From Haliotis rufescens (Eukaryota), in the NCBI RefSeq assembly GCF_023055435.1, contig NW_025963779.1, positions 70,556,001 through 70,620,000 of the forward strand: a DNA stretch of 64,000 nt, in the 5' to 3' direction. Made by a program: the position numbers and the translations under genes. The notes beneath the pieces are model-generated. The model was not told the origin of the DNA, searched no databases, and saw nothing but the letters and a program-made list of their open reading frames with translations. This document shows, in pieces, positions 5,831 to 54,397 of this stretch. The first letter of the stretch is position 1. Each line of letters starts with the position of its first letter.

Positions 5831-6065
5831 GTTACATGTAAAGTTTCTAAAGAATATATCAAAAGACAAAATCCGTCAACGTCTCCGTTTACAGATGTAA
5901 ACATCAGATTGTGAAAAATGGTTATATTCTGACCAAAAAAACTATAAAACACGTTCTGATTCACACCATATTCAAGTAATTACCTCACTTTATATGTTTT
6001 TATTTATATTAGGGACAATATATTGCTTCATATAAAAAAATAAAGTGAGAAGATAAAAACGTGCG

Positions 6066-6071
6066 TTTATT
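6066..6071 (-). promoter_or_regulatory. Putative polyadenylation signal of the GH10 gene
   Basis: AATAAA on the minus strand about 50 nt after the TAG stop at 6121-6123. Confidence 0.55.
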
Positions 6072-6120
6072 GCTGCTTTCTTTAGTATGAGTGAAACACA
6101 GGAATGTGAAAGCACCGACT

Positions 6121-20906: not shown

Positions 20907-20949
20907 GGCTGCAGTCCAACAAGTGTGACAAGCTGAACCTGCTTGAAAC

Positions 20950-20980
20950 GAATATATACACCTTTCTTATCTTATCTAAC
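20950..20980 (-). promoter_or_regulatory. Candidate core promoter of the GH10 gene (TATA-like + tandem GATA motifs)
   Basis: Minus strand reads AGATAAGATAAG...TGTATATATT about 45-70 nt upstream of the ATG; motif evidence only. Confidence 0.3.
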
Positions 20981-21789
20981 ACATTGGTCCCTTTACAAGA
21001 AATACTTACATATGTCTAATCCGATAAACAGCAGTAGGGGTTCGAGTATCTAAGGTGGAAAATAGTCTTGTGAGATCTTTGTGTTTGTAAATGTTTGGTG
21101 CTCTTTTTAAATGAATGGGCTATGAATTGTATTTTGGTATGGACAATGATATAACATGTCATAATACTTCAACAACCAAGTTTAGTTTTTAACCAAGACA
21201 AGAAAAAAAATCATAAGGTATCTCTTCAGGAATATACTGTACTGTTGATGTAAATTTTAAAAGGATTTTAAGGTAAGTGTATGACATGCACCATGGACAA
21301 ACTGACAGACCTTGTGTCATCACATATTTTCAGTCATCCATTTATCTACTTTTCGTTTACGTCCGATGTAAGATTTCAGTAGATAACCGAGATTGATTTA
21401 TCTTATGGCATTGACGTTTAATATTTAAATGTCATTTGTACTGCAATGCCTTGCAGGTTATCATTTAGATTCAGTCTGGGAATTTCATAAATGTTTAATC
21501 CAGACAAGGTAACAAAAATAAAGACAAATCACAGAAAAGCCAACCAAATATACCAGTATATAGTCAAAATGAACTGAACATTGAAGCTTAGTTTAGGGTT
21601 TGGAAGCCAAGGCTACCTACTGTTTATGTGTTTGAGTTGGGTTGTTGGGTAAGAGAAAAGGGGGCGTTCTCGATAGCCAAAATATTGTCTGTTAACAACT
21701 GTTAAACGGCAAAGCCATGTCACGACCAAATGAAGCACAGGGGAACAACGTCTTCGAAAGAATAAAAACAGGACAATCGCCAGGAGAAT

Positions 21790-24878: not shown

Positions 24879-27800
24879 TCAGCAGTTGACTTCTTCGTAG
24901 TCGGAACTACCTGAACAGTGCCGAACTTCTCGGCGATTACCATCCCTCGTGACCCGACTACAGGGCATCTCATATCCATCTGCGATGACTGAATAGTACG
25001 GTTCCTCCCGATCACACGGTTCCAAGTGTATTCCTGGTCGATAGTGAACCACTGGTTGATCAACAGGACTCAGATAACTTGCTTGGTTCTCATTACACGC
25101 GCAAGACTTCCTGAAAAAGTATGGATTACAAACGTATATCATGTCTATTAAGTTAAACGTCAAAGGACAAACGTAGCTGCAACAATGCATGACTCTATTA
25201 CCTTATACGCCACGTGGACTAAAGTACACTACACGTCGGTAGTGATGGCTTCATATTCTTGCCTGTGACACCTTTTGACTTTTTGTTCAGTTTGCTAAAT
25301 ATGCGCCGGTAATCCTACGTGTGAACAAGTCAAATATGTATATTTAGGTACCTTTTGAAGAAAGAAATAGATCCAGATACGATGACGATCGCGAAAATAG
25401 CACAAACAAATAGAAGTGCAGTAACATGCCTGCTAGAATGGACCTTTTCTGTAACAGAAAAAAAGAAGTACGAAATCGCATTGTTGTTAAACAAACACAA
25501 GTCAATGTGACTGATACTGTTATGGCTGCTTGCCGTGCTTAGATTACATAGGTGCTGTTACAAGTCTCACTATGAACTTTAAGTTTAAGTCGGAATCGTT
25601 CAATGAATAATGGTTTCTCATGATTATAAGAATTCTTTAGTGGCTCTAAGTTTAAGAACTCTCCCACTTGATTCATTTTGACTATTTTCTGTCTAAATGA
25701 GACAATTAGTCGTGTCGGGGATTCAACTTAATAGCATTATATGTACATCTAAATCATGTTATGTTATAAATGTCGTGAAGGAGTGGCCGATTTCCGTGAT
25801 TCATACATGGAATTTTATTTGAAACCAGTGCCGTCAGTAAACACGTTATCGGTAGTATGTGGTGTTTGTACCTGTGCACGAATCCCCTTTCCATCCGCTC
25901 CTACAGGACATGCAAACTCCGCTCTCCTTGTGACATACTCTACAGTTACCAGGACACGGAACAGAGCAGTCATCCATGTACACTCCCTCCTCGCAACCCA
26001 CTGTGCAGCTACCGTTCTTATCACACAGTGTCCCCAAACATCCTTGGCTGCAGTTCCTTACACACTCTGGGCCGTACAAACCCCGGTCACATTCAATACA
26101 CACTCCTGTGGATCTGTAACACCTTTGACAGCCTCGAGGACACGAGTGTTCACAGTAGGACCCCCATCTCCCCTCCAAGCAATCAGTGATGCAAGTAATA
26201 CTATCTGTATTCACATCTAACTTGTGACACATTTGTTGAGGACAGTCTGCACTGCAATTGTTCTCACAATGTCTTCCAAATGTGTTAAGTGTGCATCCCT
26301 GTGCACAGAGGGCACTTGTCTGCTCACATATTTTACCACGACATCCCGGAGAACACGTTGCATTACAATGAGCACCATAGTAGCCTGCTTCGCATCCATT
26401 GGTACAAACCCCAGTCAGTTTGTCACAGTCACGTCTACAGTTCTGACACCTACCTTCACAAAACAAACCAAAGTATTTATTTGTACACAGGCATGCACCA
26501 CCGAAATCACACTTGTTCTGTGAACACCCTTCACTGCAAAACTGACGACAACGAGTCCCGTACCTGCCATTCCGGCAAGCGGTACACGTGCCGGTGTCCT
26601 GGTGACAAGCAGTGCAGTTCCTCTGTGGACATTCATCAATGCACCTGTCTCCCATGTGGCCATCCAGACAGGGTGTGCAGGCTCCAGTGAGCACATGACA
26701 ACGTTTGTTTAAACAATGCTCTGAACATTTGTGGACACAAGTAGGGCCGTAATATCCGACTTTGCATCCTCCACTGCAGTTTCCACCGCTTTGATGACAT
26801 TGATTGTTTTTACAATTCGTTGGACATCTTTTCGAACAATTAGGACCGTAGTACCCAACCTTGCATCCGCCCTTGCACCTTCCACCATGCTGATGACAGC
26901 GGTTGTGTTGACATCCATGGCTACAATGATCTCGGCAAAATCCACCAGAAAAACCTGCCTCGCACCCGGAGGAACACCTTCCGTCGCGATCGTTACATTT
27001 CCCAAGCAGACACATGGCGCCACAGCTGTTCTCACACTGTTGCCCCCAAGTTTTCGACGCACAGGTACGCACGCATTGGTTACCTATGCTCTGGATGCGC
27101 GCACATTTCTCACAGTAACATTGGCTGTCACGGACACATTGCTTATCACATCGTTCACCGTGAAGTCCATTCTCACACCTCTCTCGACGACATGCGTAGA
27201 TGCACGTTTCAAGGCTCTCTGTAAGGTTAGGATACTGGGTTAGGTGCTAATTACTGTATTTTGAAATGAAACTTATCCCTTAATCACATCAGTAAACAAA
27301 TATTACCGTATTTCCTCCATTAGACTCCTAGACGTATATTAATTTCGCGCAAGCCGTTGACCCTGCGTGTATCAGAGGCCCGGCGTCTATTCTGTTTTAT
27401 GCTGGCTCAGTGACTCACTACCTTACCAAATCCCAAATTAAGCAGTCATCTAAAGGGTACATTTGCGGGAAATAGTCATTCATTTGTTAATCACCAGCAT
27501 TTCACACCCTTCGAGACCCGGCGTCTAATAGAGGCCCGGCTTCTATTTTTTGGACAGAACATATGACCCTGCGTCTATTCGAGGCCGGCGTGTGTTGGAG
27601 GTTCGGCGTCTAATAGAGGAAGTAGGTATTTAACGTCGTCACAAGAGGTGAATATGAAAGTGTGTCACTTTAGTTGTATGGAAGAATTATTGCTCAGTTT
27701 GTTCTATAAATCTACTCACATCACGTACAGTACTTGCCAAAAGTAATGGATTTGGTTTGGTTTGTTGTTAAACTCCGCACTCAGCAATATTCGAGCTACA

Positions 27801-30118
27801 TGACAGCGGTCTGTCAATAATCAAGTCTGGACCAAACAATCCAGTGATTGATATCATGAGCATCGATCCACGCAATTGGGACCGATGACATGCATCAACC
27901 AAGTCACCGAGCCTGACCACCCGATCCCGTTAGTCGCCTTTTACGACAAGCATAGTCGCCTTTTACAGCAAGCGTGGATTGCTGAAGACCTATTCTACCC
28001 CGGATCTTCACGGGCCTCAAAAGTAATGGAACATCTCATTAAATATAAATAGCAAAATCGTTTTTTGTTGTCGTTTGTGGTTTCTATGTCCGCTATCAAA
28101 TGCAAGGCTGTCTTTTCCAAAATGTCCAACAGTATCTCAAATTTCAGGAATCAACAACAGTTTCACTTTGTTATACGAACAACATTTCATCCAAGTTCAA
28201 CTATAGAAAAGTGTTGCAGAACGTAGTCTTGGCAGCTCGTGATGTAAATTCCGCTACAGGTGGCTGCCATGATACTGCTACCAACATGTTGGTCATAAAA
28301 TCACAGGTGTCTTTCTCTATTGTTGACAATAACAACCCCAGTCAGTTATTCAAATATGGACCAAAATATTGTGAGCATCTTCCAACCAACCGGGATAACA
28401 CTTTTAAGATCATTAGGCTCCGTGTCCAAGTATATGAAAGAAATGGGTCAAAATAAAAGATGAACCTGTTGAATGTCTTTCAATGCGTTAAGTCAGAGAG
28501 TGATAATAACCAACTGAAAATAGGAAACAGAAGTGACCCAGGCAACTGCCATACAAAGTCTGGTTGCCCCGCATTCACGTTTGTAGTGTCCCCTCCAGCA
28601 AAGCCTCGAATAACATAACTATTATATGTAATCATCACTACATTATATGGTTTTAAATCAAAGAACTTGGTATAATTGACATATCAAATAATGCCACATA
28701 TAAGGCTAGCATGTTTACTGAGGAATCCGACCCGTGAAGATCCGGGGTAGAATAGGTCTTCAGCAACCCATGCTTGCCGTAAAAGGCGACTATGCTTGTC
28801 GTAAGAGGATCTGGATCGAGCGGTCAGGCTCGCTGACTTGGTTGATGCTTGTCGTCAATCCCAATTGGGTGGATCGGTGCTCAGGATATCAATCACTGGA
28901 TTGTCAAGTCCAGACTCGATTATTTACAGACCGCCGTCATATATCTGGAATAGTGCTGAGTGCGGCGTTAAACAACAAACCAACCAACCAGCTGAGTAAG
29001 CCATCTGCCAAAAAACACGCATCAATACTATCATCTTTTGTATTGTATAGCTCCATGAAGATCCGTTTAAAGAGAGATACATTGATGGGTCAAGCAAATG
29101 TACCAAAAACTCCCCATCTCAAAGATTAACCATAATCCTTAATTCAAATTGAATTAAGGAAGAACGTTCTATATATTCACAAAAAAAAGATATTTGTGGA
29201 ATTAATTGAACTTGAATTCTTTCAAACGTTTTGTACTCCACTATTCCAAAAGGATAACTTCAGTCCTTGGTGCATGGGGCGTTTGTCACTGAATGTGTTA
29301 ACGATATATTATAGTTTCATCTCTATATCAAAGATTCGGGACGAAAATGGAAGCAAATGTCATCTTAAGTTTACTGAGAAAACTATATGTAAAATGATGG
29401 ACTTTCTCACTGATAACATCTAAGTGAAACGTGGGGATAAGACACTTGGGCGAGAATTAGGCATCTCCCTGCGCACCAGTTGTGCTCCCTTCTCGGAATT
29501 TCTGGGCGGATTGGCAAAATCAAAACAATGGAATTTGGCAGAGAAGTTAAATTTAAGCTTCAGGTATATCAATGATCGCTAAGCGTTTATTAATGGTCAT
29601 CTGGAGAATTCCCTTTCACTGATTTTCCCACCTGAACTTTGAATAAAAAAAGAGAAATAAATATCAATAAAACTAATTAAAAAAGGTTTAATTATGGAAG
29701 TTTCTTGGGTCTTTATAAGGCACAGTTATAAAGAAATGATATAGCGCGTGATGAAATAATGTATTGCATATTTTAAATCAGATAGAATAGTCAATTTCAC
29801 TGATGAGGTGTCAGGTATCGGTTATTAAATGACATAGGTTTCGGAGAATGTCAACGTTAACCTTATGTTTGACGTGGCATCACGCTGCTTTAGTAATAAT
29901 CCTGCAATAATACCGCAGGGGAAATAAGAAAGGATCTTCACACACTATACGGAAACCACTCACGGGAACTAGTAATGCAGTACTCTCAATCGACTTCCTA
30001 TGAAAACGTTACAAGTAAAAGGCTATTCCAATATCTTATAAACATATATATAGACGCCCTTACCATAAATGCAACAAGCAGCCAATGCCGTCACAATGCA
30101 GTAACATCTAAGAGCCAT
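24879..30118 (-). CDS. Multiple EGF-like repeat single-pass receptor (MEGF10/SCARF/Draper-like), about 576 aa
   Basis: Four exons: 30064-30118 (signal peptide MALRCYCIVTALAACCIYG), 25872-27218 (tandem C..G.YG..C...C EGF/laminin-type repeats), 25352-25448 (TM VTALLFVCAIFAIVIVSGSISFF-KR) and 24879-25110 (tail with YYSVI, GYEMP, SDYEEV). Phases are 1/1/2 and the total is 1731 nt. Confidence 0.9.
27306..27626. mobile_element. MITE with internal GAGGCCCGGCGTCTA repeats
   Basis: TA|CCGTATTTCTCCATTAGAC ... GTCTAATAGAGGAAGTAGG|TA imperfect TIRs and several subterminal repeats. Confidence 0.7.
27752..28015 (-). mobile_element. SINE family B
   Basis: Reverse complement of the family B consensus; TSD caaaagtaatgga. 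Confidence 0.85.
28729..28990 (+). mobile_element. SINE family B
   Basis: gacccgtgaagatccggggtagaataggtcttcagc...(AACC)n tail. Confidence 0.85.
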
Positions 30119-30559
30119 GTTGTCTGAATGACTGTCATCGATGGTTATGAAACAGCTGGTTGAATCATTTTCCGGTTGGCCAGCTATATGTATTTTTAGT
30201 AATATTATCATAAGTGTAAAACCGGGTAAAATGTTAATACTTCCGTAAGTTAAACAGCAGTTTGCTAACAATATCAGAGACACGTTATTAATACAATATA
30301 ACTATTATTATTTGTCCGCGGTGATGCTGAAGTTGTCCGTTTTTTCAGTTTATCTTTTGTATGACAGCATTGCTTTACAGTTAGTCAACTGTAACAACGT
30401 AACTGAAACATCATGTTCATTTTCGAGAAAGTGTTCTATATATCGGGAGCATAAACAAGATAAAACACTTTTTATATTCCTTAATTTTAAACCCTAGCTT
30501 TGCCAAACATATTTAAAATGTCTTGAAAGAATGCCAACTCGTTCATGATCGTGACCTTT

Positions 30560-30825
30560 GCTTGTACTAGTCCGGACTGATGCCGATTTATAGTGCTAGC
30601 TCACTGAGGTATCCATGACACAGTTTAACATGAATACCCCACTCAGACACAGTATACTGACTTCGAGCCGACCAGTCCTTGTTTTAGCCCCTTAATGCTC
30701 AGTGCCAGACAGGGTAACAACAAGTACCATATTTTAACGTCTCTAGGTATGACGCGGCCGGGGATCGAACTCCGGACCTTCCGCTCTCTGGGCGGACGCT
30801 CTACCACTAGACCACGGAGGCGGTC
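30560..30825 (-). mobile_element. tRNA-derived SINE family C (Meta-domain-like)
   Basis: Head gaccgcctccgtggtctagtggtagagcgtccgcc, B box gttcgatccccggcc, body cgtcatacc...atggtacttgttgttaccctg. Confidence 0.85.
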
Positions 30826-32196
30826 TCCTATAAAAGAGATACGGGTATGAACATAATTTTCCGGCAGGCACCAACTGTCACGAGCCGCAGAGTCTCCAGA
30901 TCCTACTTCTTGGTGGATCACACCCGCATAAATGCTGAAATCGAGTGATTTCGATATGACGCCGCTCTGTCCACTGTGTCAGCTTAATGTTGAGGAAAGC
31001 CCTGAGATGAAGGTCTTAGACATTTACTACTTTGTGAAAACCACATGCACGGGTAAAGTGCTGTCAAAACAAGTGCGAAAGAGGGGTTCGAACTCTTGAT
31101 CATTGCAACCTGTCACGACTTACTAACTGTGTACTGGATGGCCATATGTGTATGGGCAGTGCGTTGATTAGTGGCCAGCTTCGGAAAACCACGTTGTGTG
31201 TGTTTAATCAGGCCTACCTATGAAAACCAGTAGAGAGCAACCAAACTAAATATAGTCCACAGTATGGTTGCTCTCTGCTGAATATCATTTGTAGGTCTGT
31301 TAGTACCATGATTGAAAACACAAAACTGAACTCACCATGAACATCTATTATTTTTATTTTACATGTATCATTGCATGATTTGTGTACATAAAAGTGCTTT
31401 CAGATTTACAGTTGGGCCGCTACATCTAAGTCCAGGTTGGATGAATGGATTCCAGATCCTACAGATGTGTCTGGAAACAGAAAAGTCTACATTTCTCATA
31501 TTTTCCCCATCCTCAATATGAAACATTTAACTTGGTGGAGAATTTACAAAACATAATTCAAATAGTTCATCATAAGCAGGTGATATAAATGCTTCCAAAT
31601 GGTAACTTGATTCTCACCGGATCACACATATCCAGAAATAGGATGACAGCCTGAACAAATAAACATATTTACCTTATAATAGTCAAATGTGCACAGATTT
31701 TCTTTAGATCGCCACAAGGAAATATGTCAAAACTATAAATATCTTCAGTCGGATTTCTTTTCAAAATGGAAAGCATTCACACAAACTACTTCCGCCTATC
31801 GTTACATGAAGGCTCGGTTGAAATGAAGAACAGTGCATTTAATTTAATCTTGTGTCCGTTTTATCAGCAGAAGTAAATAGGTATTTAAAGAGGGGTGAGC
31901 TTGAACATATTTGGCAATACATAGCTTTGTTTGCCTGCTAGCTCAAATTGTATTTCAATCTGATCAGAAACAACTCAGGACAAGGAGAATGACATAACCA
32001 AATTACTATGACCTTGTTGTTAAAATTCAATATGATCAAAGGGAGGTAGCCCTCTATTTACTATGGTCTGTGTCAGGTTCAGTTCATGCACCACTACTTT
32101 AAAAAAAATTCCGCTTCTCACACGTATGCGCTACTGCATACCGACTTCCGTCTTTGTTGATGATAGCATAACGTGAATACTAATTACACAACACAA

Positions 32197-33904
32197 CTAC
32201 GCATCGAAACTACTCGTGGTTTTATCCCATTGTATCACATACACTGCCCGACAGGAGAGTTGATAGACAAAAGACAGACAACTACAGTCACCTCTTACAG
32301 TGTCATAGCATAAGGGAAACTGAAAGAAAGACGACATAAACGTTAAGAAAATAGAAAATATCTCCTCACTTTGCAACAGTGATACTATACGCGTTTGAAC
32401 CCCATATTTCATTAAAATGAAGTGTGATATACCCACTGCGTAACTATCAACAACTACCATACAACATCGTTGGTGATATAGTAGGCACTTACCGCTACAA
32501 TGTCAAGCCCCAGGTTTAGGCTCATCTCCGAGTATGCACGATATGCACTGTAGGCTCCAGTTGTATATTCATACAGCGCCTCGAACAGGAAGGCATACTG
32601 CTCCTGGAATTAAACACCGACACGCATGATAATATTGAGTATAAATATAGAGAAAATAATTTGAAAAATTAAATTGGGTTTATACTTCATGCCCTGATAC
32701 TCATGTACATCGAGATGGAGACATCGTAATTTGGGCCTTGTGTAGAACGCAATTTTCACTGCTGATGATTTGTACAAAACAACAGTCTGGAGACGGACAG
32801 ATTTTGGTTTTGTAAACTTGTGTCAAATGTGATAGGACTACCCAAGTGTAATCACCCTTTGTGTGAGTGAGTGAGGTTTTACGCCGCTTTCAGCAATATT
32901 CCTGCCATATCACGACGGGGGACATCAGAAATAGGCTTCACACGTTGTACCCATGATGGGAATCGAACCCGAGCCTTCGACGTGACGAGCGAACGCTTTA
33001 ACTACTTGGCTACCCCACGGTCCCGCACCGGTTCAGTGTAAATGAGGATGTCAACTTTTAGTATGGGGATTCGGGTGTTTATTTAGAGGGTATTAGGAAC
33101 TCAGGGGTGTGGTACGCAGGACGCAAATATAATCGTATTTGATATTCAGATTAAACATTAAAAAAATAATATTGGAGGACGTAATAATTTCTTTTATATA
33201 TTTTATTTTTTCGGTAATTTAACTACAAATCGCACCTCTTCTCAATGCTTGAAGGATTCGTGTTAAGCTGTATTCGGGATTCAGGTCTGGGCAGTGAGAC
33301 TCACAGTCAACAATTAGTGGTATTCGGTATCCTGGGGAGGAGGGAGTCGGCACCTATGTTAAACACAAAATCCCGTTCTGTATGTTCAGCGTTATGGCAC
33401 CCACCTCGGTCTGGACCATCTCCATCCGCTGTTCTCGGAGGTGAGATACACAGCCGAAAACATCCACAATATCGTCAGCCTTTGCCTGGGACAGGAGGTA
33501 GTGCAGAGCAATGAATGTTCCAGTTCGGCCGATTCCAGCACTGAAATGAGCAATAATGTGTCATTACATCAATATTAGTAAACATTAAAAACTCAACGCC
33601 CTTGATTCAAACAGCACAGTGAAAGAAGGACTACCTGCAGTGGACGATGACTGGTCCGTGTACAGCTGACGCATCTCGGAGCACCGCTGACCGGAAGTCG
33701 AGAAATGACGTCACATCACGTGGGGAATCACAGTCAGGCCAGGCGGTGAAGTGGTATTGGTATATTTCCCTCTTCACCTCTCCAGACTTGAACATAGGAA
33801 CATGTTAGTGGCAATGTATCGCAATATTTGCGTCAAGAAAGGAGTTTCCAGTTACTCAATCGTTCACTCACTAGCTCACTGACACATAAACCTGAGAGTG
33901 GAAG

Positions 33905-33951
<47 letters not shown>

Positions 33952-36900
33952 TGTGTCTGTGTGTGATTAAGTTACATAATACTGTACACCAGAAACTGAT
34001 TTATTTGACGTCATGTACATAAGAGGACGAGCTCAATGTATCCTGTTGTATCGAGAGCATGACACTTTTTCACTTTCCTTCACGTAGGTCTTAAATGTGC
34101 CCCGCTTTCATTGGTGATTTATGAATATAGGTTATATTTTTACCTTGGTGATATTGAACGTCCTCTTTACATAAGTGTCGCTGACTTCTTCAAGCACAAA
34201 CTCCACCATGATGTCATCAAATGTTTTGTTTTCATTGAATTCGCCTGGCCAATACTTGACACACTTCATCTGAAAATAACCATGGTTTGCGTTAATGTCT
34301 CAATAATCTGTCCAAATTGCTGTGATACATTCACGTTCTTATATCGGTGATATGTGTGCCCAATTCGTCTTCGTCGCCGCAATTCGCTGGGCAGAGTTGT
34401 GTCCCTTAGGTGTGCAGAGAAACATCTGAAACCTGTATTGATTCAGGCGTATCACCCACATTAAGATTACACAGCTTGATATAATTGAACAACTGTTCAA
34501 AGTGGCGCTAGGCCCACTTCACTAATCTTAATATTTCAGCCAGACTTTTGACCGATGTTATTCTTATTAAAAAGTTAAACAATCATATAAGCACCGGAAA
34601 ATATTCCATGGCAATCATTTTGAGATTTAGTGTGCACCAATTTAACGATAACAAAATGGTAACAGGAAGAAAACAAGGAATTTGGATTGTAATAATTCTG
34701 CAATTAAGTTTTATTAAAGTAGAAGTGACAGGAAACAGTGGCTATGAAATTAAATACGAACACTATTTAGTCAGGACGGGAATGATATTAATGAAGTTAT
34801 TCTGATAATTGAATCATTGATCACCACGTCAATGACAGTCCTGAAGGCGGATTACCTGGACGAACTTAGCCCGGCTGACGAGGTGTATCTGTACACATGA
34901 AATTTATGAAATAAATCAATAGAATTTCGTAAAACAACCTTTCCGTCTTCAATGATGTTCGTAAGCATGACAATCTGTCGAGCATGGGTCTCCCATACCA
35001 TCCTCCAGAAGTCTGGCACCACACGCAGAAACGGCCCTTAAAAACATGAGTGAGTATTATTTAGCAATAATCCAGCAATATCACGGCGGGGGACACCAGA
35101 AATGGGCTTTTCACACATTGTACCCATGTCGGGAATCGAACCCGGGTCTTCGGCGTGACGAGCAAACACTTTAACCACTAGGCTACCCGACTGCCCCTTT
35201 AAGAAACATGAAGTTAATCTGATTAGTTCATGGCATCCAATGAAGGAAATGGGCTTGCTGAAATGTTTGTGATGGAAGAATAAAAAAAAGGCTTGAAGTG
35301 ACAGCAAAACGACCATGGCAGGTTACGAAAATAATAAAATCTCAAGTAGAGATAATTTCTTTGTTACTGATAGCTCACCTTGCGCGGCTATGAACTGTTG
35401 CAGGCTGCCGACCCCCTGGTGAGAAATATAACGTTATCAATATTAACGGTGCATGTATGTGAATACACTGAAACCCGTTATACCAGACATCACCGTTTCT
35501 ACTGTAAGCGTTCGGGTTAACACATGTCCGGATTACGTTATAAGAGATACGTAGTAATATCACGCCCATCATATATAGATTGCCCCAATGATAGTCCAGA
35601 TGACGGGCATTCTGGATAAACGAGGTTTCTCTGTATGTACTATTCTCGGTTCTCGTACCTAGCCTGCCGGGCAGAAAGTGTACACCAATGTTTGATGAAA
35701 AAAAGCAATGAATAGTCGATGGTGATGTATTTCATACGGTCACACGGGTATTTCATACCATCATAGTTGTGCTTTTAGGCGTCATGCTTGCAGTGTTTCG
35801 GCGACTGTTTTGGTAACGTTTGTAATATTTTGCTCAAAACCAGTTTTCAAGTGTATACTTTCTATTGCCCGGAAGTTTAGATAGGTTATGTTCATTTACA
35901 CACTTAAACTCAATCTGATATCGATGTAACGATTAATGTGAATATCTATCGCATACAGTCGTACTATGAATTCATACACATTTGGAAATGTATGTCAAAT
36001 ATTGTTTCAAGTACTTACCCATATGAAATTTGTGGCATTTGTGATGGTAACTATGTTGTCTCAAATAATACTTTGCATCACAAAACTATATATTTTTTCC
36101 TTTCATGCACGTTAACGTGGATTTTTAAATCAAATTGAAGTTACGTTAACGTGGATTTTTAAAACAAATTGAAGTTGCGTTATACGGTGAGTAAGCGGTT
36201 AGTTGTGTACCGCCACCAGTACAGTGTGTGTCTTGTGTCAAATCAATCATTGTGTGAGTGGAAAGCCCAAAACATAAATGTGATGTTTTAACAGCGTAAC
36301 CATGGTGAAATTGGAATTTATACAATCAGCGGAGAATGTCGTCTAAGGAACACATTTCTTAACAACCTGTTACGTTTTAGAATATGGTGCTACCTGCGCC
36401 CCGTATGTTCAATGACGTCAGAAACAACGAACATACCTGTATGTAATTAGCATTGATGTATCCACTGGAAACATTCTCGGCGACCACCTTTAACACAACT
36501 CGACTGCTATCATCTGAATGTGTAGCGAAGATACAAACAGAGAGCATTAATAATAAATTAAATATATTTCATAGTGAGATTTACAGAAATGGGTTTCACC
36601 GATTTATATACCAATAAATATTTACTCATAATATCAAACAGGCTCCATTATTTACAGACCGACGTCAAATAGCTGGAATATTGCTGACAAACAAACTAGA
36701 CGATGGTTACCTACATGAAGTAACGTCTTTGCTGACAAGCGTGATTAGACGTTATCTTTGATGAAAACAACCAGTGAGTGATGTGGGATAAATGTCGTTA
36801 TGAAAATTATTTCGGTAATGTCACGGCGTATCATCTTAATGGGGCAGGACAGCCCGAAGGGATGCATGTATTAGAAGTTTACTGTGCACTCAAAATATAA

Positions 36901-39900
36901 ACTCATATTCAGGATGAATCTGGGATTCGAAATCCTATGGGGCGTAACTTTGTAATCAAATGGGCATCAATTGGGCCACTCTCAAAATAATATCAAATTT
37001 CACTCGGGGATATACCGATATATCTTCTCTGAATGAGTGGCCTTTGTTCTCCCTGTCCACACTAAGATATACGGATTATCTCCCCTGAGTTAATTGACAT
37101 TGTATGTCCCTCGCGAAGGCTCGCGATGAATTGACAAGGAACAAGGAACTCGCACTTTTTCGTTGGCCGTTTGTGCAAGGTGTACAGCTGCCGGTCGGAG
37201 GCTACTTACACGGTAGAACATCCCGGTATCTGTTCTTGCAGATGTTATCACTCTTCTTCGCCTCACTGCACAGCGTGTAGTCTGCTCTTGGTAGATCCTT
37301 CAAACAAGTTGATAATCAAACATTTAGATCATATTTCTGGCTAAAACAAATACAACGTCAGAATGGCAGAAAACATGGTGTTGATTTTCCTACGAAACCT
37401 ATTTCATTGGGGGTAAAAGGCGAAACCGCGGTGAAAACAACACGAACGGATCACTGAAAGTCAGTGATGACACCAGGTGGCGCCCCACCGGTAGAACCCG
37501 CCACTCACACAATTTGTTTACCAGAACAGGCGTGATTTCACAATTCAAACTCTAGAGTTTCAATTTAAAAAAAACACATTTTTTTTTATAATATCCAATT
37601 GTTTGCTCATTGTCAGTTGTGTGACGTCATCCACCTAGAAATATTTCAAGCATTACCTACTTTCGATTATCTGTGAATTTTGTTTGTGATAATGCAAAGC
37701 CGACTGATACAATACCACTTAATGATGATACTGTTCTGAAGAATCAAGCCAACGGCCATGCAAGGTAACAACAAGAACCATTTTTAACATCATTTGGTGT
37801 GACGGGGCCGAGGATCAAACCACCGGCCTTTATCTCTCCGGGCAGACGCTCTATCCACTAGACCACGGAAGCGGTCTACTTTATAGTTTTAATATACGGA
37901 GATGGGATATATCGGATGTATTGTGTATCGGAAGACGTTTAAGGGTCAAGATGTTTTACAGACTACTGCGGTTCAAAAAAGAAAAAATATGTAATGTTAT
38001 AAAGTTACATTTTTTACATGCATCAAACTTTCTAATCGCTTGTATAGCAAATGCCTTCACCTCGTAGTATGTAAATTGAACATGACACTTACTTCAAATT
38101 GCTTGAACAGACACTTGGTACTGAGGAAGAGCTGTAGACATCGCCTCATGTCTGTCTCGCGGGTCTCTGTAGCTGACTCTCTATTGGGATGGCCGTGTTG
38201 GCGACTGAGGGAGTCATACACTGTGTCGTCGACAGCGTCAGTGCCGAGGCGTTTGTCGTCACTGACGCCGCTGGTACTTGGACACGGGTTGTTATTGACT
38301 GCTTGGAGTTCTGAAATAAACAGCTGATGCATGTAGTGTGAATTTTATCTCGAGAGCGTTGTTGCAGTACCTTGCACTATAGTACGAAATCGCACCCATC
38401 CACCGTTACTTCCCAGATGTGATAATTTGAAGTTCAGTTAATTAAAATTGAATGGACATAATGAACAGTCACTCATACTCAGAATTTGTTCAATACCTAA
38501 TCGTATGACAGGATTGAATCTGGTTCCTACACAATGTCAAATAAAACGAACATCCAGATTGAATATCGACGACATTACATAACATCAGGTGCAAAGTGAG
38601 TATAGACTTTTCCACATCCATTGTATCAGTTCTCTGTAGATCGACACGTTGTATATACTATCCCACAAATGTAGGGGATAGTGGGAATCATCAAGACATA
38701 TCTTGTGACCTATATGATATGATCATATCTGCTGGGGAGTAGGCGATCAGATTCTGGGTTCTAATGGTTAATGTGATGAGATGGTGGCACACAAGGTCGT
38801 TAAAGAGGTCGAGGGTCATACGAAATTTGCATTTTGCAGCCAACGTCACTGATATCGGGTAAAACCACCTCTGTTGGCCAAACATGCACGAATTTTTCGA
38901 GGCATGCTTCTGATGAGTCGACCAATGTCAGCTTGACTCATGTTGTGCTGACCATGGCATGACATGGGTGTGTAGCTGTTGGAGGAATTGGGTCACAATC
39001 CTCACAAGATGAGCACGTGCATTATCATCTTGAAAGATGAAACGTTGCCCAACACGCTTTGCAAAAGTGGTGCAACGATGCTGACCCGATAGTGTTGAAA
39101 TGTGACTCTACCAATGACGGTATTGAGCGCAGTTCAGCCAGTCGTTTTGATACCACCCCATACCATTATGGACCCGCCCCCAAAACGATCATGATGTACG
39201 ACGTTAACGCCAATAAAAGACTCATTAGAATCGATGCCTTCGGTCGTTGAAGTTGGGAGTGCTGACGTTCCCTACACCGCTGACGCTCACAATCTGCTGA
39301 TGACAAATTGAGAAACATGTAGCGTTTGGGCAACAAGATTCTGACGTGTGCCCACCTCCAACATGACCTTAGCACGTGAACGTTAAGAACGTTGCAAACG
39401 TCGCATGATCGTTGTTTCTTTAATGATTAAATGTGTTGAATAAGTGTCTTTGGGCGTTTAGTTCCAAGAGATCAGTTTGCGTCTGCTAACAACCGAGTCT
39501 GAGTGAAAATGGTAAATCAGGCATAACACCCTTTGCACGTGCTGTCCTGGGTCACGTGCTTCATGACTGTCACAGTGTTGTGTTTTGGAGTGGACTTCTT
39601 CGGAAATGTTCTTGCCACATAAATCGCTTACTTTCATTGCCAGACATTTGAGTATTTTCCTATAGTTTCACCTCAGACAAATTATCCCCTACGTTCTGCA
39701 AAGTATATCATATTTATAAACCTTTATAAAACCAAATACCATACCGTTTACCACTTCTAAACATAGACTTTGGCTGTTTTGATTTCCTCTGGATAGGCAG
39801 CTCATTGAACCGTCACGAGAAATCGGTGTTACCCTGGAATTGCACAAGGAAATGATAAGTCACTGAGTACAGGTGTACGGGTGGTGAGTGTCGGAAGCAC

Positions 39901-41203
39901 ACCTGAAAGTGTGGATCTCAGAGTAAGAGATTAGAACTGCCAGCTTTGGCAGTCGGACAGTTTTTCAACGGGAAAAATAAACAATCCGATTGATGACAGA
40001 CCAGAATAGAGTCTTAATGTGCCTTGCACAACGAATACCCGGCGTCATCACTTATTTTTAGTGATCCATTCAAAATATTCATCACTATTTTGCCTTTATG
40101 GAATCTGTTTCGGCAGATAATCGGGACAGTTATTTCCTGATGTTGACATTTTGAATTTACTAGTGTTATCGTCGGTACATATACAGTGATCACTGAAGGT
40201 AAATGTTTCCACAAGCCATTTTCAATTTGTTACAGGGACGTTTCTGTACACAGCAATAACAAGTGCAACTCACCGACCAGAGTTCGCGTATGCACTGACA
40301 CGACGACTGTTTCCGCCCAGCCACCTGTGACTGAAATGGTAAGAAAAAATTGAGTAAGGGTTTCGTTGCCACAGATGAATGACTTTGTATAAACATTAAC
40401 CTGTCTATAATTGTATAACATCAGTAACGACAGAATGCACGGATACATGTCTGTGTGCGTGTTAGCATTGTGTGNNNNNNNNNNNNNNNNNNNNNNNNNN
40501 NNNNNNNNNNNNNNNNNNNNNNNNNNNNNNNNNNNNNNNNNNNNNNNNNNNNNNNNNNNNNNNNNNNNNNNNNNNNNNNNNNNNNNNNNNNNNNNNNNNN
40601 NNNNNNNNNNNNNNNNNNNNNNNNNNNNNNNNNNNNNNNNNNNNNNNNNNNNNNNNNNNNNNNNNNNNNNNNNNNNNNNNNNNNTGTGATTTCAAATAAA
40701 TAATTGTCACATAAAAGAGGGACAAGACTCGAGTCAATAAGTAGCCACAGGTCATTCAAATACACTTAACCTGTTTTTATAATTGCCCTAATTACAACGA
40801 AACATTATCTTAATTTCACACGAGGCACTAACACTAATGTTTTGACCTACTGTGAAGCGTTGTCCCGCTTTAATGTACTTTCTCAGTATACAGATTAACA
40901 CGGGACTTACCGGCGTGTGCGGTAGATGCACGTGAACACTTCGATCACAAATATCACCACAAGCAAGCCACTTGATACACATATGACATATGGGCAGTAA
41001 TCACCTAAATAAATGAAACAGACATAGGAAGAAGTGAAGGTTATATTTATTGTTGAATCAAATTATACTTTATGCGTTATAATAAGTTATATATAACGAG
41101 ATTTTAAATGATTGTTCAAGTTATCAATTGACAAGTTTTAATTGACTGACACACTTTGAAACGCAATGTTCACGTTTAACTATAAAGGTATGCGATATTC
41201 GGC

Positions 41204-41240
<37 letters not shown>

Positions 41241-41444
41241 TTGGAGATTTAACGAGCGCTTCCGGGGATATCGATTTCTCACTCGGTATTCGGCAATGAA
41301 TTGTTTCAGTTATAGCCTATTAAATATCAATGAAACGTGTCTTCACAGGCAGTTGTTTATGTATTAACACTTGGAGTCACTGTGTTCTAATGTTAAGGAT
41401 TAATATGACAGAAACTAATCAATACCAGTACACTTACATTCCAT
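32197..41444 (-). CDS. Classical protein tyrosine phosphatase (receptor-type D1-like domain) with N-terminal membrane anchor and a single PTP domain
   Basis: Exons 41438-41444 (ATG), 40911-41004 (TM), 40274-40330, 39745-39833, 38093-38310, 37210-37297 (KNRYRDVLP), 36437-36513 (YINANYI), 35379-35415 (FIAAQ), 34939-35036 (DFWRMVWE, IVMLT), 34144-34269 (KCVKYWP), 33635-33786 (WPD, VHCS), 33405-33540 (AGIGRTG, QRMEMVQT) and 32493-32603 (EQY). The terminal exon is either 32197-32319 or an alternative near 31408-31470. The PTP core is firm; the N- and C-terminal exons are less certain. Confidence 0.87.
32861..33025 (-). mobile_element. SINE family A
   Basis: Same consensus, diverged. Confidence 0.85.
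33907..33965. repeat. (GT)n microsatellite
   Basis: Direct reading of the sequence. Confidence 0.95.
35048..35197 (-). mobile_element. SINE family A inserted at a PTP splice acceptor
   Basis: Same consensus; flanked by ccttaaaaacatga and cctttaagaaacatga. Confidence 0.88.
36109..36180 (+). repeat. 34-bp tandem duplication
   Basis: acgttaacgtggatttttaaa(t/a)caaattgaagtt x2. Confidence 0.8.
38656..39705 (-). mobile_element. Decayed Tc1-like transposon in a PTP intron
   Basis: Imperfect TIRs tactatcccacaaatgtaggggata and ttatcccctacgttctgcaaagta; internal remnants of Tc1 DDE segments (FQDDNAR-like, MVWGG-like). Confidence 0.65.
40475..40684. other. Assembly gap (N run) inside a PTP intron
   Basis: Run of N flanked by tgtg. 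Confidence 0.95.
41204..41240. repeat. (GAT)n microsatellite
   Basis: Direct reading of the sequence. Confidence 0.95.
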
Positions 41445-42215
41445 ACTTGTGCTGTTATCCCCGAAAGGCGAAAGAGAAGGTAAATCCTTAAAAAATAATC
41501 AAGAATACACATCCAGTAAGTTAATTGCATAACAAGTCCGTAATTTCCTCAACAGCGAGGCATTCTGACATCTGAAAAACCTTGTTGAACCGATATGCAC
41601 TCATGATGCCACAGAGTTATTCCCCCTATATCAACACGGCATATTATACGATTAATTACTATTTTAAGTAAAAGGCTTAATATATATTAAAGGGCTAACC
41701 ATGATCTCTCATGCCTTCAATCTAGAGCCATTAAACCATGCTTGATCCACGAAACAAATAAAGACTTATTTCATTTTCGTATACAAATCCAGTTGATATT
41801 AGTGTTGTAAGGTTATTGTCACACATAAACTCTATCGTGTATGAAAAAAACGTGTCTGCGAAGTAGCAGTTATTAAACAGATGTAGACACGGATCCATAT
41901 GGGGGATGCAGTGGATTCAGCTGCCGGTACATGCTCACTGTTCACTTACACAGTCGTTTCCTGAATGTCTTTGAAGTACTTGCCTTTAGCATCAGCCGTT
42001 CAAGCAACTACATACATGTGTGTCAGAGCTTATGGTTTTCTTTATGATTTGTTAGTGAATGTCGATTGAATCTTTTTTGTGTGAATAATCCCAGACCATA
42101 AAAAATATGGTATAATTACTTTTGAACGTCAGTTCGTATTACTTCAACTACACAAGAAATAAATTTTTACTTCATGCTTCATTACACGAATGCTGTAATT
42201 ATCAATCATTTAACT

Positions 42216-42930: not shown

Positions 42931-43474
42931 GTGGTTAACATGATACAGTTCATCACTCAACTGACCTAACTGGTTAGACTCTGTGACACAAACTTCAGCC
43001 AATAACATAAAATATGTAATCATATTACTAATACGGGTAATCGGTTCTGCCCGTATAAGGAGAATTCAGTTACAAATTGCCACGTGTGACAATAAGATTG
43101 TTTAGGCATTACTTCAGATTTGATATGGCCAGTTATGTTAGTGGAATAGACTTTTTATCTGATGAAACATTCTCTTGCAATGATGTAGGTAAATGATCAC
43201 TAGAAAAGCGAACTTACCCTTTGCGTTCATGCCTGCAATGTTTAGTAGATGAACCGTTATGTAAGGTGCACGTCCTTGTTTCACATCGATACTGATACCA
43301 CTTGTACGTCACACACTACAACCTTCTATTTCCTGTCCCACTTGTCACTGACATCAATAATATTCATATGAAGTAAATCTAAACAAAGTTTCAAATCCAT
43401 CAGCACGGTAGTGATCACTGTGAAACTATGCTGCTCGGGAAGGGGTAATTGAATTAAGAATATGGACTCCATTT

Positions 43475-45961: not shown

Positions 45962-46558
45962 TCAATGTTTGGATGTCCCACCAGCCTTCGCAGCTTTCAT
46001 CAAGGGGTCGTTCTTGTTGACTCTCCTCATTGTATGTTCCAGGACTCTGTTGATGTCGGAGCTATCCCTTGCTGATACCTCATAGTGGCCATGCTCCCAT
46101 TCACAACTGATGGACAGATCCCTGTAGACCCGCACAGTCTTGTCCGCATCTTGCGCTATGTCAGTCTTGTTGGCCACAAATATGATAGGGATGCTGTCTC
46201 CCTTCTGTTTTAAGATCTGTTCCCTGACTGCCGTGACAGACTTGAAGGAGTCCTCACAGACAAGGGAATACACCAGAAGGTAGGCGTCACAAGAAGGCAG
46301 TCGTTGGATGAATGGAAAATGTCGTTTCACTGCTGTGTGTATAATTTCAACATTGAGGTCTCTACCTCCGATTCCTAAATCATCATCACGTTCACCTTTC
46401 CTTGTCTTCTTGCTTCTAATTTCCGACCACTTCCCCTGTAAGCCATCCATTAGCGTCTTCTTCCCCACTCCCTGATAACCCATGACGACCATTTTCAGGG
46501 AGCTTTTTTCTGGGCGTCGTGGCTCTTCCTTGAGAATTCTTTCTGTTTCAGGGTCCAT
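45962..46558 (-). CDS. Atypical Ras-superfamily small GTPase (Ras/Rap/Di-Ras/Rhes-like), uninterrupted CDS, 198 aa
   Basis: MVVMGYQGVGKKT (G1), EIIHTAV in place of DTAG (G3), YLLVYS...SF, IIFVANKTD (G4), YEVSAR (G5). Start taken at MDPETE. No CaaX box at the C-terminus (GGTSKH). Confidence 0.85.
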   Translation of the reverse strand: MDPETERILKEEPRRPEKSSLKMVVMGYQGVGKKTLMDGLQGKWSEIRSKKTRKGERDDDLGIGGRDLNVEIIHTAVKRHFPFIQRLPSCDAYLLVYSLVCEDSFKSVTAVREQILKQKGDSIPIIFVANKTDIAQDADKTVRVYRDLSISCEWEHGHYEVSARDSSDINRVLEHTMRRVNKNDPLMKAAKAGGTSKH

Positions 46559-47281
46559 ATCAGGATGGTCACATACACGTATGGAGAAAAGTTGTGTTCT
46601 CGTGGAGGCAGCCGTTATCAATGTGAGGAGTGATCTGATAATGAAATATGTTGTGTTGAACCTGTGAGACATACATTGAACAACCACTCCTGTTCCATAG
46701 CAACAGCAACGTTTGGTGTGATCAATAGGGAAAACGTGTTATATTTATAAGATTTTGTTCTCGTTTTAGCTGTGTGTAGACTTAGAAAAGAATAAAATGT
46801 GCAACCATTTAAGATAAATTTTATTCCTAACGCCATTTTCGTTTTCCAAATATAATAGTATATCAAGGGACGTTAGTATTCGTGAGTAGTACTTTACATT
46901 AAAACTCTATTTTCTTTCCATCGTATAAAGCTTGAAGTAGGAATATATACATAACAATGGTTCAATTGGCAACATGGATGCATGTTCAATTTATTGTCTT
47001 TAATTATAATTACTGCATTTCACTTGACTTGCATGAAACTGAATCAAACATTCAACAGTTCCCGGTAAACAATCATCATGTTTTACTTCTACGGTTTTAT
47101 GGTCACTAGCTCACTACGATTTGGAACTTACCATAATAAACTTATTCTGACACCCTCCACACATTACATGATAGAATTTTCTTTTCTTACGCATTATGTT
47201 CAGTCCAGACTCCCTTATTTCCTTTCACAACTACAGGATCTAAAATACGTACATGTGCACAGGCACTTTCTTTAAGACGGT

Positions 47282-53205: not shown

Positions 53206-53615
53206 CATCCAAGATATGATCACATTAGATTTATTTGGATAAAAATACAAATAGACAACGCGACAGTCGGAATTACGGATTAAAAATATGAAAACGGCTC
53301 GGGGTTGTAATTTTTAAAATTCTCTTGGGACATATAATCCATAATTATTCCTCGTAGCTCGTATGTTATTCTATAATTCTTTCAGAATGCACGGAGGGAA
53401 ACTACAGAACTCAAGGGGGCGACTGAACATGTTCTTCATGTGACATACGTCCATCACACCTGACGGCCTCCTACAACACGTCATGTGTGCTGTATCAATA
53501 CGTCAAGTGAGGGTTAGGCTGTAATAACACGTGAAGTAGAGGATACCGGTTAACGTGTAACCGATGGGCGAGGTCTTGTCGGGGAGGTTGCAGGTGACGC
53601 TATTCAGGACGTACC

Positions 53616-54397
53616 TGTAATAATACAGATAACAAACGCTGCAGCTGTACCGATGGTGGTGACTGCAGATATAGCAAGGGTTACTATGGCAACAACTGCT
53701 ATGTCACCTGTTGTGACAGTTTGTGTGATGATGACGGCATGTGTCCAAATGGATGTATTCCTGGATGGCGTGGTGGCAGGTGTGTTAACCCGTAGTCACG
53801 CTGTCTCATTAGTTAGTGCGATATGAAGAACGGGACATGTATAATTTGGCTGTGTGAATGGTTTCCATGGTGACTGGTGTTAAGATGTGTGTGGCACAAT
53901 CTGTAACGATGGTCCGTGTTACCAAAACACTGGGGAATGTGATAGAGGATGAGTGTCGGGATGGTATGATCAAAGTTTGCTCAGAATATGCTAATTTGAG
54001 AGAGATTTGTCTTTAAACAGATTTTGGCGGTTATCAATCATAATCTAGATGACACTATAAACAGATATGAGCAATCGTCATTTTTCATATGTATACATAC
54101 TTAGTATGATATATGGTGTACCAAACGGTTCTTTAATACAATATTTTACATGTATTTCTTGCTATTTTGAGCAGAAGTTCCTGTTCCTGTTGCGGCGCAC
54201 AATCCCTGGTGTATTCTTCGTGCCCAGACATGCCCAGACACGCCCAGACACGGCATACCTTAAATGTACCCTCGATGGCAGACTTGATGGAATCAGCGGA
54301 CGCTGATGACTCCTACTATTCCGGAAGTACCGGACTCTCTACAGGATCGACTAAACTCTGCCCTGGTTACACACGGCTGTGCAGAAGCAGCGTGTAA
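53616..54397 (+). pseudogene. Decayed EGF-repeat receptor paralog (EGF exon fragment plus cytoplasmic-tail exon)
   Basis: 53616-53975 translates as CSCTDGGDCRYSKGYYGNNC...CIPGWRGGRC...GCVNGFHGDWC*DVCGTICNDGPCYQNTGECDRG* with in-frame stops and a frameshift. 54175-54397 is a phase-2 exon (SSCSCC...DDSYYS...) resembling the tail exon of the 24879-30118 gene and is followed by AATAAA. No TM exon is seen between them. Confidence 0.7.

What the first reader, a model, noticed from the sequence alone, without database searches (positions are those of the whole stretch)
24879..41444. Possible split receptor-phosphatase system: ectodomain-less membrane PTP next to phosphatase-less EGF receptors
Seen in sequence: the PTP seems to start at a strong-context ATG (agtATGG) giving MECDYCPYVICVSSGLLVVIFVIEVFTCIYRTRR, i.e. 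a few extracellular residues, one TM and an intact catalytic domain. No minus-strand ectodomain exons are visible upstream before the Ras-like gene. About 1-2 kb downstream on the same strand is an EGF-repeat receptor with a TM and a Tyr-rich tail but no enzyme domain. Further EGF paralogs lie at 53.6 kb and 58.9 kb. Background recalled, not checked here: molluscs have many receptor PTPs with EGF-repeat ectodomains. Inference: the ligand-sensing and catalytic halves may be separate clustered genes, by fission or as a receptor-plus-adaptor pair, forming a modular innate-immune or engulfment signalling cluster.
Basis: partly seen in the sequence, partly recalled or inferred. Interest (0 to 1): 0.72.

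Follow-up and report, generated by a model that had tools for sequence, protein, structure and literature searches.

The report
Abalone membrane phosphatase without outer domain
This abalone gene encodes a membrane-anchored tyrosine phosphatase with almost no outer part, likely lost from a sensor-plus-phosphatase ancestor; it is likely a general brake on signalling rather than the missing half of the receptor next door, and it sits beside an array of look-alike receptors predicted to work as on/off pairs.

Summary
Observation confirmed. The minus-strand gene is a spliced, 433-residue, single-domain tyrosine phosphatase with an 8-residue outer stub and one membrane helix, identical to a red abalone RefSeq model; models from three other abalones are equally short. 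Its domain nests among abalone EGF-repeat receptor phosphatases, so the outer domain was most likely lost. The EGF receptor 1.3 kb downstream is a separate SCARF/MEGF-like gene with its own signal peptide, helix and tyrosine tail. Gene order, two membrane helices and the lack of a basic partner residue argue against fission or a dedicated pair. The closest analogue is vertebrate PTPROt/PTP-oc; I infer a ligand-independent tuner of tyrosine-motif signalling. More striking is the flank: from the 58.9 kb gene on, a 370 kb array holds 10 EGF receptors with ITAM tails and 6 with a fused phosphatase, whose outer domains are 81-92% alike across the two classes within a unit but about 40% between units. 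That is the signature of paired activating/inhibitory receptors; my paper searches did not find it described in molluscs. The scan has one earlier, unchecked note on tail swapping in another abalone receptor family, none on this locus.

The parts
41438..41486 (-). PTP start-codon exon (phase 0 in, phase 1 out); ATG at 41444 in A-3/G+4 context
   Evidence: same Met as RefSeq XP_046337951.2
40911..41004 (-). PTP membrane exon; helix 9-30 with Glu24 and Cys28 invariant in 4 abalone species, basic inner flank
38093..40330 (-). Three juxtamembrane exons (40330-40274, 39833-39745, 38310-38093)
   Evidence: joints and loose ends in contigs
32493..37297 (-). Single PTP domain, exons of 88, 77, 37, 98, 126, 152, 136 and 111 bases; WPD and HCSAGIGRTG intact
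31358..31486 (-). Last exon: acceptor 31470 (433 aa, stop 31459) or 31486 (456 aa isoform X1); AATAAA at 31358
30064..30118 (-). EGF receptor signal-peptide exon
   Evidence: sequence only
25872..27218 (-). EGF receptor ectodomain, one symmetric phase 1-1 exon, 448 aa, about 83 Cys; single copy, best paralogue 47% over 236 aa
25352..25448 (-). EGF receptor membrane exon, no charged residue in the core
24879..25110 (-). EGF receptor tail exon, 6 Tyr, one ITIM-consensus match (SDYEEV), no ITAM
43218..43420 (-). Candidate upstream untranslated exon of the PTP (GTAAGT donor near 43218, in-frame stop 4 codons before it); untested
   Evidence: inference
45965..46738 (-). Single-exon Ras-family GTPase gene, upstream neighbour
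   Evidence: PF00071 E 3e-18
53380..54010 (+). Broken EGF-exon remnant (stops and frame changes), 30-43% alike to the plus-strand ectodomains
58865..61254 (+). First three exons of an intact 577-aa EGF receptor; helix and ITAM tail lie just outside the window (G000:C1:70620096-70620183, 70621259-70621478); first gene of the ITAM/PTP array

Best explanation
A stand-alone abalone gene encodes a single-domain tyrosine phosphatase with an 8-residue outer stub and one membrane helix; it likely arose when a member of the local EGF-receptor phosphatase family lost its ectodomain exon, and it likely works as a ligand-independent brake or tuner on tyrosine-motif signalling in general, not as the dedicated other half of the EGF receptor next to it. 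Shown: gene structure, splicing, conservation in four species, intact catalytic motifs, place in the tree. Inferred: N-out/C-in insertion without a signal peptide (net charge -2 outside, +6 inside), loss of the symmetric phase 1-1 EGF exon (which keeps the frame), enzyme activity. Inferred by analogy: with no bulky outer part it would not be pushed out of close cell-target contacts, so it would stay among clustered ITAM-type EGF receptors and act on them or on Syk/Src-type kinases, raising the threshold for engulfment or immune signalling.
For: Same start Met and no ectodomain in RefSeq models of 4 of 4 abalone species found. Contigs from 3 coded organisms splice the ATG exon to the membrane exon, with in-frame changes in the stub. 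No orphan minus-strand EGF exon in 420 kb upstream: the only ones belong to a separate gene with its own helix; 0 of 80 minus-strand ORFs (41.5-144 kb) plus the Ras ORF gave an ectodomain family above cut-off. Tree: inside the abalone expansion (100/97), sister to the neighbouring EGF-fused single-domain PTPs (89/81 and 90/82); grouping with PTPRA/E rejected (p-AU 2e-11), exclusion from the expansion rejected (p-AU 0.009). Domain exon lengths equal those of the fused neighbours. D1 is 86-98% conserved between species, the stub 1-3 of 8. Analogy: PTPROt, 8-residue ectodomain, acts on Syk and Lyn (PMC8645932, passages); phosphatase exclusion triggers Draper (PMC6219719, passages); shortened CD45 blocks phagocytosis (10.1101/250373, passages).
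Against: No functional datum at all. The sister grouping with the neighbours is below strong support, and grouping with the C1:79 Mb genes is not rejected (p-AU 0.14). The transcript's true 5' end was not seen: an upstream exon exists and its letters were not displayed; 14 codons are open before the Met. RefSeq models are predictions. PTPROt/PTP-oc can also activate Src (PMC8645932, PMC8799702, passages), so the sign may be opposite. Its own EGF neighbours are themselves long (about 450 aa), so size-based exclusion may not apply as it does for Fc receptors. The WPD loop reads WPDCDSP, not WPDHGVP, which may alter activity. The invariant membrane Glu is unexplained by this model.
Confidence: 0.6

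Rival explanations
1. One reading: the PTP and the adjacent EGF receptor are the two halves of one receptor (by fission, or as a dedicated receptor-plus-adaptor pair) and act as one complex.
For: Same strand, 1341 bases apart. Both are single-copy, old branches of the same families. In the flanking array each tail-type receptor has a PTP-type partner, and the 25 kb receptor has no fused partner with a like ectodomain (best 47%), so the two may be a relic unit whose PTP member lost its ectodomain. Membrane Glu24 is invariant in 4 species and absent from 10 of 10 EGF-family helices, as in charge-paired adaptors (recalled).
Against: Order is PTP then EGF gene, and each has its own unrelated membrane exon, so simple fission fails. 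The neighbour's helix core has no basic residue. PTP contigs stop at 31366, next to AATAAA at 31358, without running into the EGF gene. The tail's kinship to the array's ITAM tails is inconclusive (68 of 1000 shuffles score as high).
Confidence: 0.12
2. It is an adaptor-like or activating enzyme for some other partner: the membrane Glu pairs with a basic helix of an unknown receptor, or the enzyme turns Src on by removing its inhibitory phosphate, or it works on internal membranes.
For: Glu24 and Cys28 invariant in 4 species while the stub is not. PTP-oc activates c-Src and raises ITAM/SYK output (PMC8799702, passages).
Against: No partner identified; the Glu is six residues from the inner basic flank and may only mark the helix end (inference).
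Confidence: 0.2
3. The short protein is only one isoform of a longer receptor gene (internal promoter, as for PTPROt), or the true start lies further upstream.
For: The ATG exon has an acceptor and an open frame with an NST sequon before the Met; an upstream exon exists.
Against: No candidate ectodomain exon on that strand in 420 kb. All 7 named RefSeq accessions in the three clusters, from four species, are short. The best candidate upstream exon and the unspliced form both carry an in-frame stop. Small exons under about 60 codons and non-EGF domains beyond 144 kb were not excluded.
Confidence: 0.08

Closest known systems
PTPROt / PTP-oc / PTP-phi (short isoform of vertebrate PTPRO)
   Same: 8-residue outer part, one helix, one PTP domain; known to act on Syk and Src-family kinases and on ITAM/ITIM pathways (PMC8645932, PMC8799702, passages)
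   Different: PTPROt comes from an internal promoter of a gene with 8 FN3 repeats; here it is a whole gene in an EGF-receptor PTP lineage, found only in abalones, with an invariant membrane Glu
Biomphalaria MEGF/GBD receptor PTPs and SCARF-like receptors (SudRes1, LG5R)
   Same: Gastropod clusters mixing EGF-repeat receptors with short tails and with PTP domains, tied to parasite resistance (PMC12297450, PMC13712769, passages)
   Different: Those PTPs have tandem domains and a galactose-binding domain; the abalone genes here have one PTP domain. The passages read mention no ectodomain-less PTP, ITAM tail or pairing; supplements not seen
Vertebrate paired receptors with homogenised ligand-binding domains (PIR, Ly49, NKG2, NKR-P1; 'merohomogenization')
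   Same: Neighbouring genes share near-identical outer domains but carry opposite signalling ends (PMC3210942, abstract); seen in the flanking array
   Different: Outer domains are EGF repeats, the ITAM is in the receptor's own tail, and the presumed inhibitory member carries the phosphatase itself instead of an ITIM
Draper/MEGF10/SCARF engulfment receptors
   Same: Signal peptide, EGF repeats, helix, tyrosine-motif tail (the 25 kb and 58.9 kb genes)
   Different: No EMI domain hit, ectodomain in one large exon, short tail; orthology not tested
PTPRA/PTPRE (R4)
   Same: Short ectodomain; top non-abalone hits at 40-45%
   Different: Two PTP domains, which inflate their scores; tree grouping rejected

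Membership tests
Classical tyrosine-specific PTP | PF00102 domain over cut-off with KNRY, WPD, HCX5R and Q loops | tested here: met
   263.6 bits, residues 173-404; motifs at 176, 313, 346, 389
Classical tyrosine-specific PTP | Measured phosphatase activity | not testable with these tools
   needs an assay; WPD hinge deviates
R4 receptor PTP (PTPRA/E) | Tandem D1-D2 | tested here: not met
   one domain, then a 28-residue tail
R4 receptor PTP (PTPRA/E) | D1 groups with PTPRA/E | tested here: not met
   p-AU 2e-11
PTPROt/PTP-oc | Stub ectodomain, one helix, one PTP domain | tested here: met
PTPROt/PTP-oc | Isoform of a gene with an FN3 ectodomain upstream | tested here: not met
   no ectodomain family in 80 minus-strand ORFs, 41.5-144 kb; small exons could be missed
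PTPROt/PTP-oc | Orthology to PTPRO | not tested
   no PTPRO row in the trees; the target nests in an abalone expansion
Gastropod EGF-repeat receptor PTPs | PTP domain descends from the family | tested here: met
   inside the abalone expansion, 100/97; exclusion rejected p-AU 0.009; no Biomphalaria rows
Gastropod EGF-repeat receptor PTPs | Signal peptide and EGF ectodomain | tested here: not met
   absent in the target; present in the fused neighbour
Gastropod EGF-repeat receptor PTPs | Tandem PTP domains (as in SudRes1) | tested here: not met
   target and array genes have one domain; D2 seen only at C112:11.5 Mb, C112:62 Mb and C594
SCARF/MEGF10-like receptor (25 kb gene) | Signal peptide, EGF-type repeats, helix, tyrosine tail | tested here: met
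   35-47% alike to family ectodomains; Pfam gave no family for this exon at E 0.001
MEGF10/Draper proper (25 kb gene) | EMI domain and ITAM | tested here: not met
   no Pfam hit; no ITAM in the tail
Charge-paired membrane adaptor | Acidic residue in the adaptor helix | tested here: met
   Glu24 in 4 of 4 species
Charge-paired membrane adaptor | Basic residue in the partner's helix | tested here: not met
   0 of 10 EGF-family helix cores
Paired activating/inhibitory receptors (flanking array) | Near-identical outer domains on different signalling ends | tested here: met
   81-92% within units, 38-48% between; one-class clades rejected p-AU 2e-35 and 1e-61
Paired activating/inhibitory receptors (flanking array) | ITAM consensus Yxx[IL]x6-9Yxx[IL] in the activating member | tested here: met
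   10 tails, spacing 8 or 9; consensus from PMC9546547, passages
Paired activating/inhibitory receptors (flanking array) | Likeness confined to the outer-domain part of the gene | tested here: met
   DNA identity 89-94% ends at or near the 3' end of the EGF exon in 3 of 3 pairs compared
Paired activating/inhibitory receptors (flanking array) | Shared ligand, same cells, opposite output | not testable with these tools
   no expression or binding data

The most novel reading that the evidence does not exclude
The locus is a molluscan paired-receptor complex of a new design: ITAM-bearing EGF receptors are matched by look-alike receptors whose inhibitory end is a built-in phosphatase rather than an ITIM, outer domains are re-matched by repeated recombination, and the ectodomain-less phosphatase is a freed module that serves as the shared, non-excludable brake (possibly docking through its membrane Glu) for the tyrosine-tail receptors, including its neighbour.
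Probability: 0.25. Interest if true: 0.78.

Novelty: new variant of a known kind. Interest (0 to 1): 0.52.

Why it matters
Molluscs have hundreds of unexplained EGF-repeat receptors and receptor phosphatases, and such clusters are linked to parasite resistance in snails. This locus offers a concrete logic for them: matched on/off receptor pairs, long thought of as a vertebrate device, with the off switch built in as an enzyme. It also offers a natural test of the phosphatase-exclusion model, since a phosphatase with no outer part should be immune to exclusion. The short phosphatase alone is a convergent repeat of PTPROt and of moderate interest.

Tried and rejected
No holder on record as RNA was listed; the runs used are presumed RNA contigs. 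Low contig depth over the EGF gene cannot rank genes and is not used. The letters of the upstream exon were not among the loose ends displayed, and both lays are spent. A 33-base candidate exon at 31650-31618 was dropped: contig lengths in 2 runs and both RefSeq isoforms skip it. Search with the EGF exon gave 2 weak hits among 190 candidates and not the gene itself, so it says nothing on orthologues or synteny. Residues 1-175 against 1.84 billion representatives: 1 real hit (H. asinina) and 2 repeat-protein chance hits. Atlas search: one unnamed cluster at 0.92 and PTP clusters below 0.9, no lead. Minus-strand small EGF exons at 243-246, 286-288 and 329-334 kb (window-extended) were considered as a distant ectodomain and rejected: the two copies examined have their own helix exon. 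The 53.4 kb remnant is not the lost ectodomain's close copy of any gene tested (30-43%, no DNA match). Kinship of the 25 kb tail to ITAM tails: inconclusive. A cleavable signal peptide reading of residues 9-30 is disfavoured by charge distribution; no dedicated predictor was available.
Full report
Setting. Coordinates above 64000 below are window-extended (add 70556000).

1. The phosphatase gene is real. Fourteen minus-strand exons with AG/GT ends and matching phases give 433 residues from the ATG at 41444, identical to RefSeq XP_046337951.2; a second isoform differs only in the last acceptor. Pfam finds one PTP domain (173-404, E 2e-78) with KNRY, WPD, HCSAGIGRTG and Q loop in place; the WPD loop continues CDSP where PTP-sigma has HGVP. 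Contigs of presumed RNA runs skip the predicted introns: 39832-40273 in 4 of 4 runs laid, 40330-40911 in 2 of 4 plus a variant in a third, and ATG exon to membrane exon in 4 of 4 (two with a 4-base offset that I read as one substitution, two with in-frame replacements of 11 and 23 letters for 20). In 2 runs one contig spaces exon 5 and exon 11 by exactly the 426 bases of the exons between. Those contigs end near 31366, beside AATAAA at 31358.

2. The ectodomain is absent, with one caveat. Models from H. cracherodii, H. asinina and H. rubra also begin 8-17 residues before the helix. The stub is unconserved (1-3 of 8 identical), the helix conserved (15-22 of 22), the domain 86-98%. Charge is net -2 to 0 before and +4 to +7 after the helix, which predicts N-out insertion without a signal peptide (positive-inside rule, recalled). 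Caveat: the ATG exon has an acceptor at 41486 and 14 open codons before the Met; one run has 32 more 5' letters that do not continue into the intron, another stops at the acceptor, a third runs on unspliced to 42175. The upstream exon was not displayed. The best candidate donor (43218) and the unspliced form both put a stop in frame four codons upstream. In 420 kb upstream no orphan EGF exon lies on that strand: small EGF exons at 243-246, 286-288 and 329-334 kb belong to another gene with its own helix (two copies checked), and 80 minus-strand ORFs up to 144 kb gave only transposon families above cut-off.

3. Origin. G000 has at least 160 PTP exon matches; the target is single-copy, its best paralogues about 65% in the most conserved exon. 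Trees of the D1 domain used 19 reconstructed paralogues, 3 other G000 PTPs, 4 orthologues and 6 database proteins (32 rows; 24 rows after leaving out 8 long, near-duplicate or gappy rows). The target lies inside the abalone expansion (100/97) as a long branch sister to the single-domain EGF-fused PTPs of the adjacent array and C1:19 Mb (90/82, 89/81; not strong). Grouping with PTPRA/E is rejected (p-AU 2e-11), as is a clade of the expansion without it (0.009); grouping with the C1:79 Mb EGF-PTPs is not rejected (0.14). A large upstream EGF exon was seen for 12 of the PTP loci examined (6 in the array, 2 each at C1:19, C1:79 and C112:11.5 Mb); for the others the stretches fetched showed none, perhaps being too short. 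In the fused genes the ectodomain is one phase 1-1 exon between a 0-to-1 signal exon and a 1-to-2 membrane exon; the target has a 0-to-1 exon spliced to a 1-to-2 membrane exon, as frame-keeping loss of that exon would leave (inference). The N-terminal 175 residues have relatives only in abalones.

4. The neighbour. The 25-30 kb gene gives 576 residues: signal peptide, 448-residue EGF-type exon, helix, and a tail with six tyrosines, one ITIM-consensus match and no ITAM. Its splicing is not confirmed: one low-depth contig starts at the tail acceptor and another crosses an intron. It is single-copy. Such short-tailed SCARF/MEGF-like receptors mixed with EGF-PTPs are described in Biomphalaria (PMC12297450 and PMC13712769, passages), so clustering alone needs no fission. 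Against fission: reverse order and two unrelated membrane exons. Against a charge-paired adaptor: the target's invariant Glu24 has no basic counterpart in 0 of 10 EGF-family helix cores, the neighbour included. For some link: its tail shows four tyrosines in the same order as the array's ITAM tails, but the profile score is matched by 68 of 1000 shuffles.

5. The flanking array. From 58.9 to 423 kb, 17 large plus-strand EGF exons were found: 10 are followed by a helix and an ITAM tail (YxxL-x8/9-YxxL), 6 by a helix and a single PTP domain, 1 is unassigned. One gene of each class was assembled in full and is open (577 and about 937 residues). They fall into three ectodomain types, each holding both classes: 81-92% identity across classes within a type, 38-48% between types. 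Ectodomain trees reject an ITAM-only or PTP-only clade (p-AU 2e-35, 1e-61; 3 identical copies left out); DNA likeness of 89-94% covers the signal and EGF exons and ends at or near the EGF exon's 3' end in 3 of 3 pairs. Synonymous distance is 0.09-0.14 between partner ectodomains, at or near saturation between types, at least 1.8 between ITAM tails, but 0.07-0.38 between PTP exons (92 codons only). So PTP modules and ectodomains have been recombined repeatedly, by conversion or by grafting a local ectodomain on a spreading PTP module. This fits paired receptors with homogenised outer domains (PMC3210942, abstract). ITAM-Syk signalling in oyster haemocytes is reported (PMC6994640, abstract), and ITAM/ITIM receptor families in Hydractinia (PMC9546547, passages). 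Some repeats have 100% identical proteins and could be assembly duplicates; two more ITAM genes elsewhere had no PTP exon within the 40-50 kb fetched.

6. Mechanism. Shown: anatomy, splicing, conservation, descent. Inferred: a plasma-membrane enzyme that needs no ligand. PTPROt, with the same plan, dephosphorylates Syk and Lyn and can inhibit or activate (PMC8645932, PMC8799702, passages). Draper is triggered by exclusion of bulky phosphatases (PMC6219719, passages) and shortening CD45 blocks phagocytosis (10.1101/250373, passages), so a stub phosphatase would stay at contacts and raise the threshold of the many tyrosine-tail receptors. I put 0.85 on the structure and origin, about 0.6 on the whole model, 0.12 on a dedicated pair, 0.2 on another partner or an activating role, 0.08 on a longer form.

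7. Novelty. The protein is annotated, under a misleading 'mu-like' name, and its plan is known from vertebrates; a stand-alone gene of this plan from the EGF-PTP lineage, and ITAM/PTP pairing with homogenised EGF ectodomains in a mollusc, were not found in ten searches of the open library (listings, plus the passages and abstracts named above). Subscription journals are not covered, and the Biomphalaria supplements, which I did not open, may list such genes. Verdict: new variant of a known kind; interest 0.52.

Noticed in passing
window 58865-64000 and G000:C1:70620001-70980000 (L001-L036): Array of 10 ITAM-tail and 6 PTP-fused EGF receptors in three ectodomain types, outer domains matched across classes; paired-receptor signature. 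Deserves its own study.
   Followed up: partly
G000:C1:70.77-70.87 Mb (L015-L026): About 42-kb unit repeated with 100% identical proteins (ectodomains at 222/265, 248/290, 256/298 kb): very recent duplication or assembly artefact.
   Followed up: no
G000:C1:70.795-70.802, 70.84 and 70.883-70.890 Mb, minus strand: A second EGF receptor type with one small exon per repeat pair, its own helix exon and varying exon number between copies, interleaved in the array.
   Followed up: partly
G000:C1:78.866-78.871 Mb (L082-L083) and C446:0.77 Mb (L086): Two further genes with a 93% identical ITAM tail but only 65% identical ectodomain, and no PTP exon in the stretch fetched.
   Followed up: partly
window 40911-41004: Glu24 and Cys28 in the PTP helix are invariant in four species and absent from paralogues; Cys28 could be a palmitoylation site (recalled analogy).
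   Followed up: partly
window 41483 and 41002: All four runs read another base at 41483 than the window; two runs seem to differ at 41002.
   Followed up: no
L055 (G000:C594:50.79 Mb): A 991-codon uninterrupted frame holding FN3-like part, helix and tandem PTP domains: a nearly intron-free receptor PTP.
   Followed up: no
window about 6000-21000, minus strand: Multi-exon genes whose exon translations look like glycoside hydrolase family 10 enzymes with a carbohydrate-binding module (label recalled, not tested), apparently in two copies.
   Followed up: no
window 49868-50933, 62717-63458, 38650-39600: Tc1/mariner-type transposon remains (DDE_3 and HTH hits for the first two; the third, inside a PTP intron, judged by eye); abundant tRNA-like SINEs throughout.
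   Followed up: partly
window 45965-46738: Single-exon Ras-family GTPase between the PTP and the array.
   Followed up: partly
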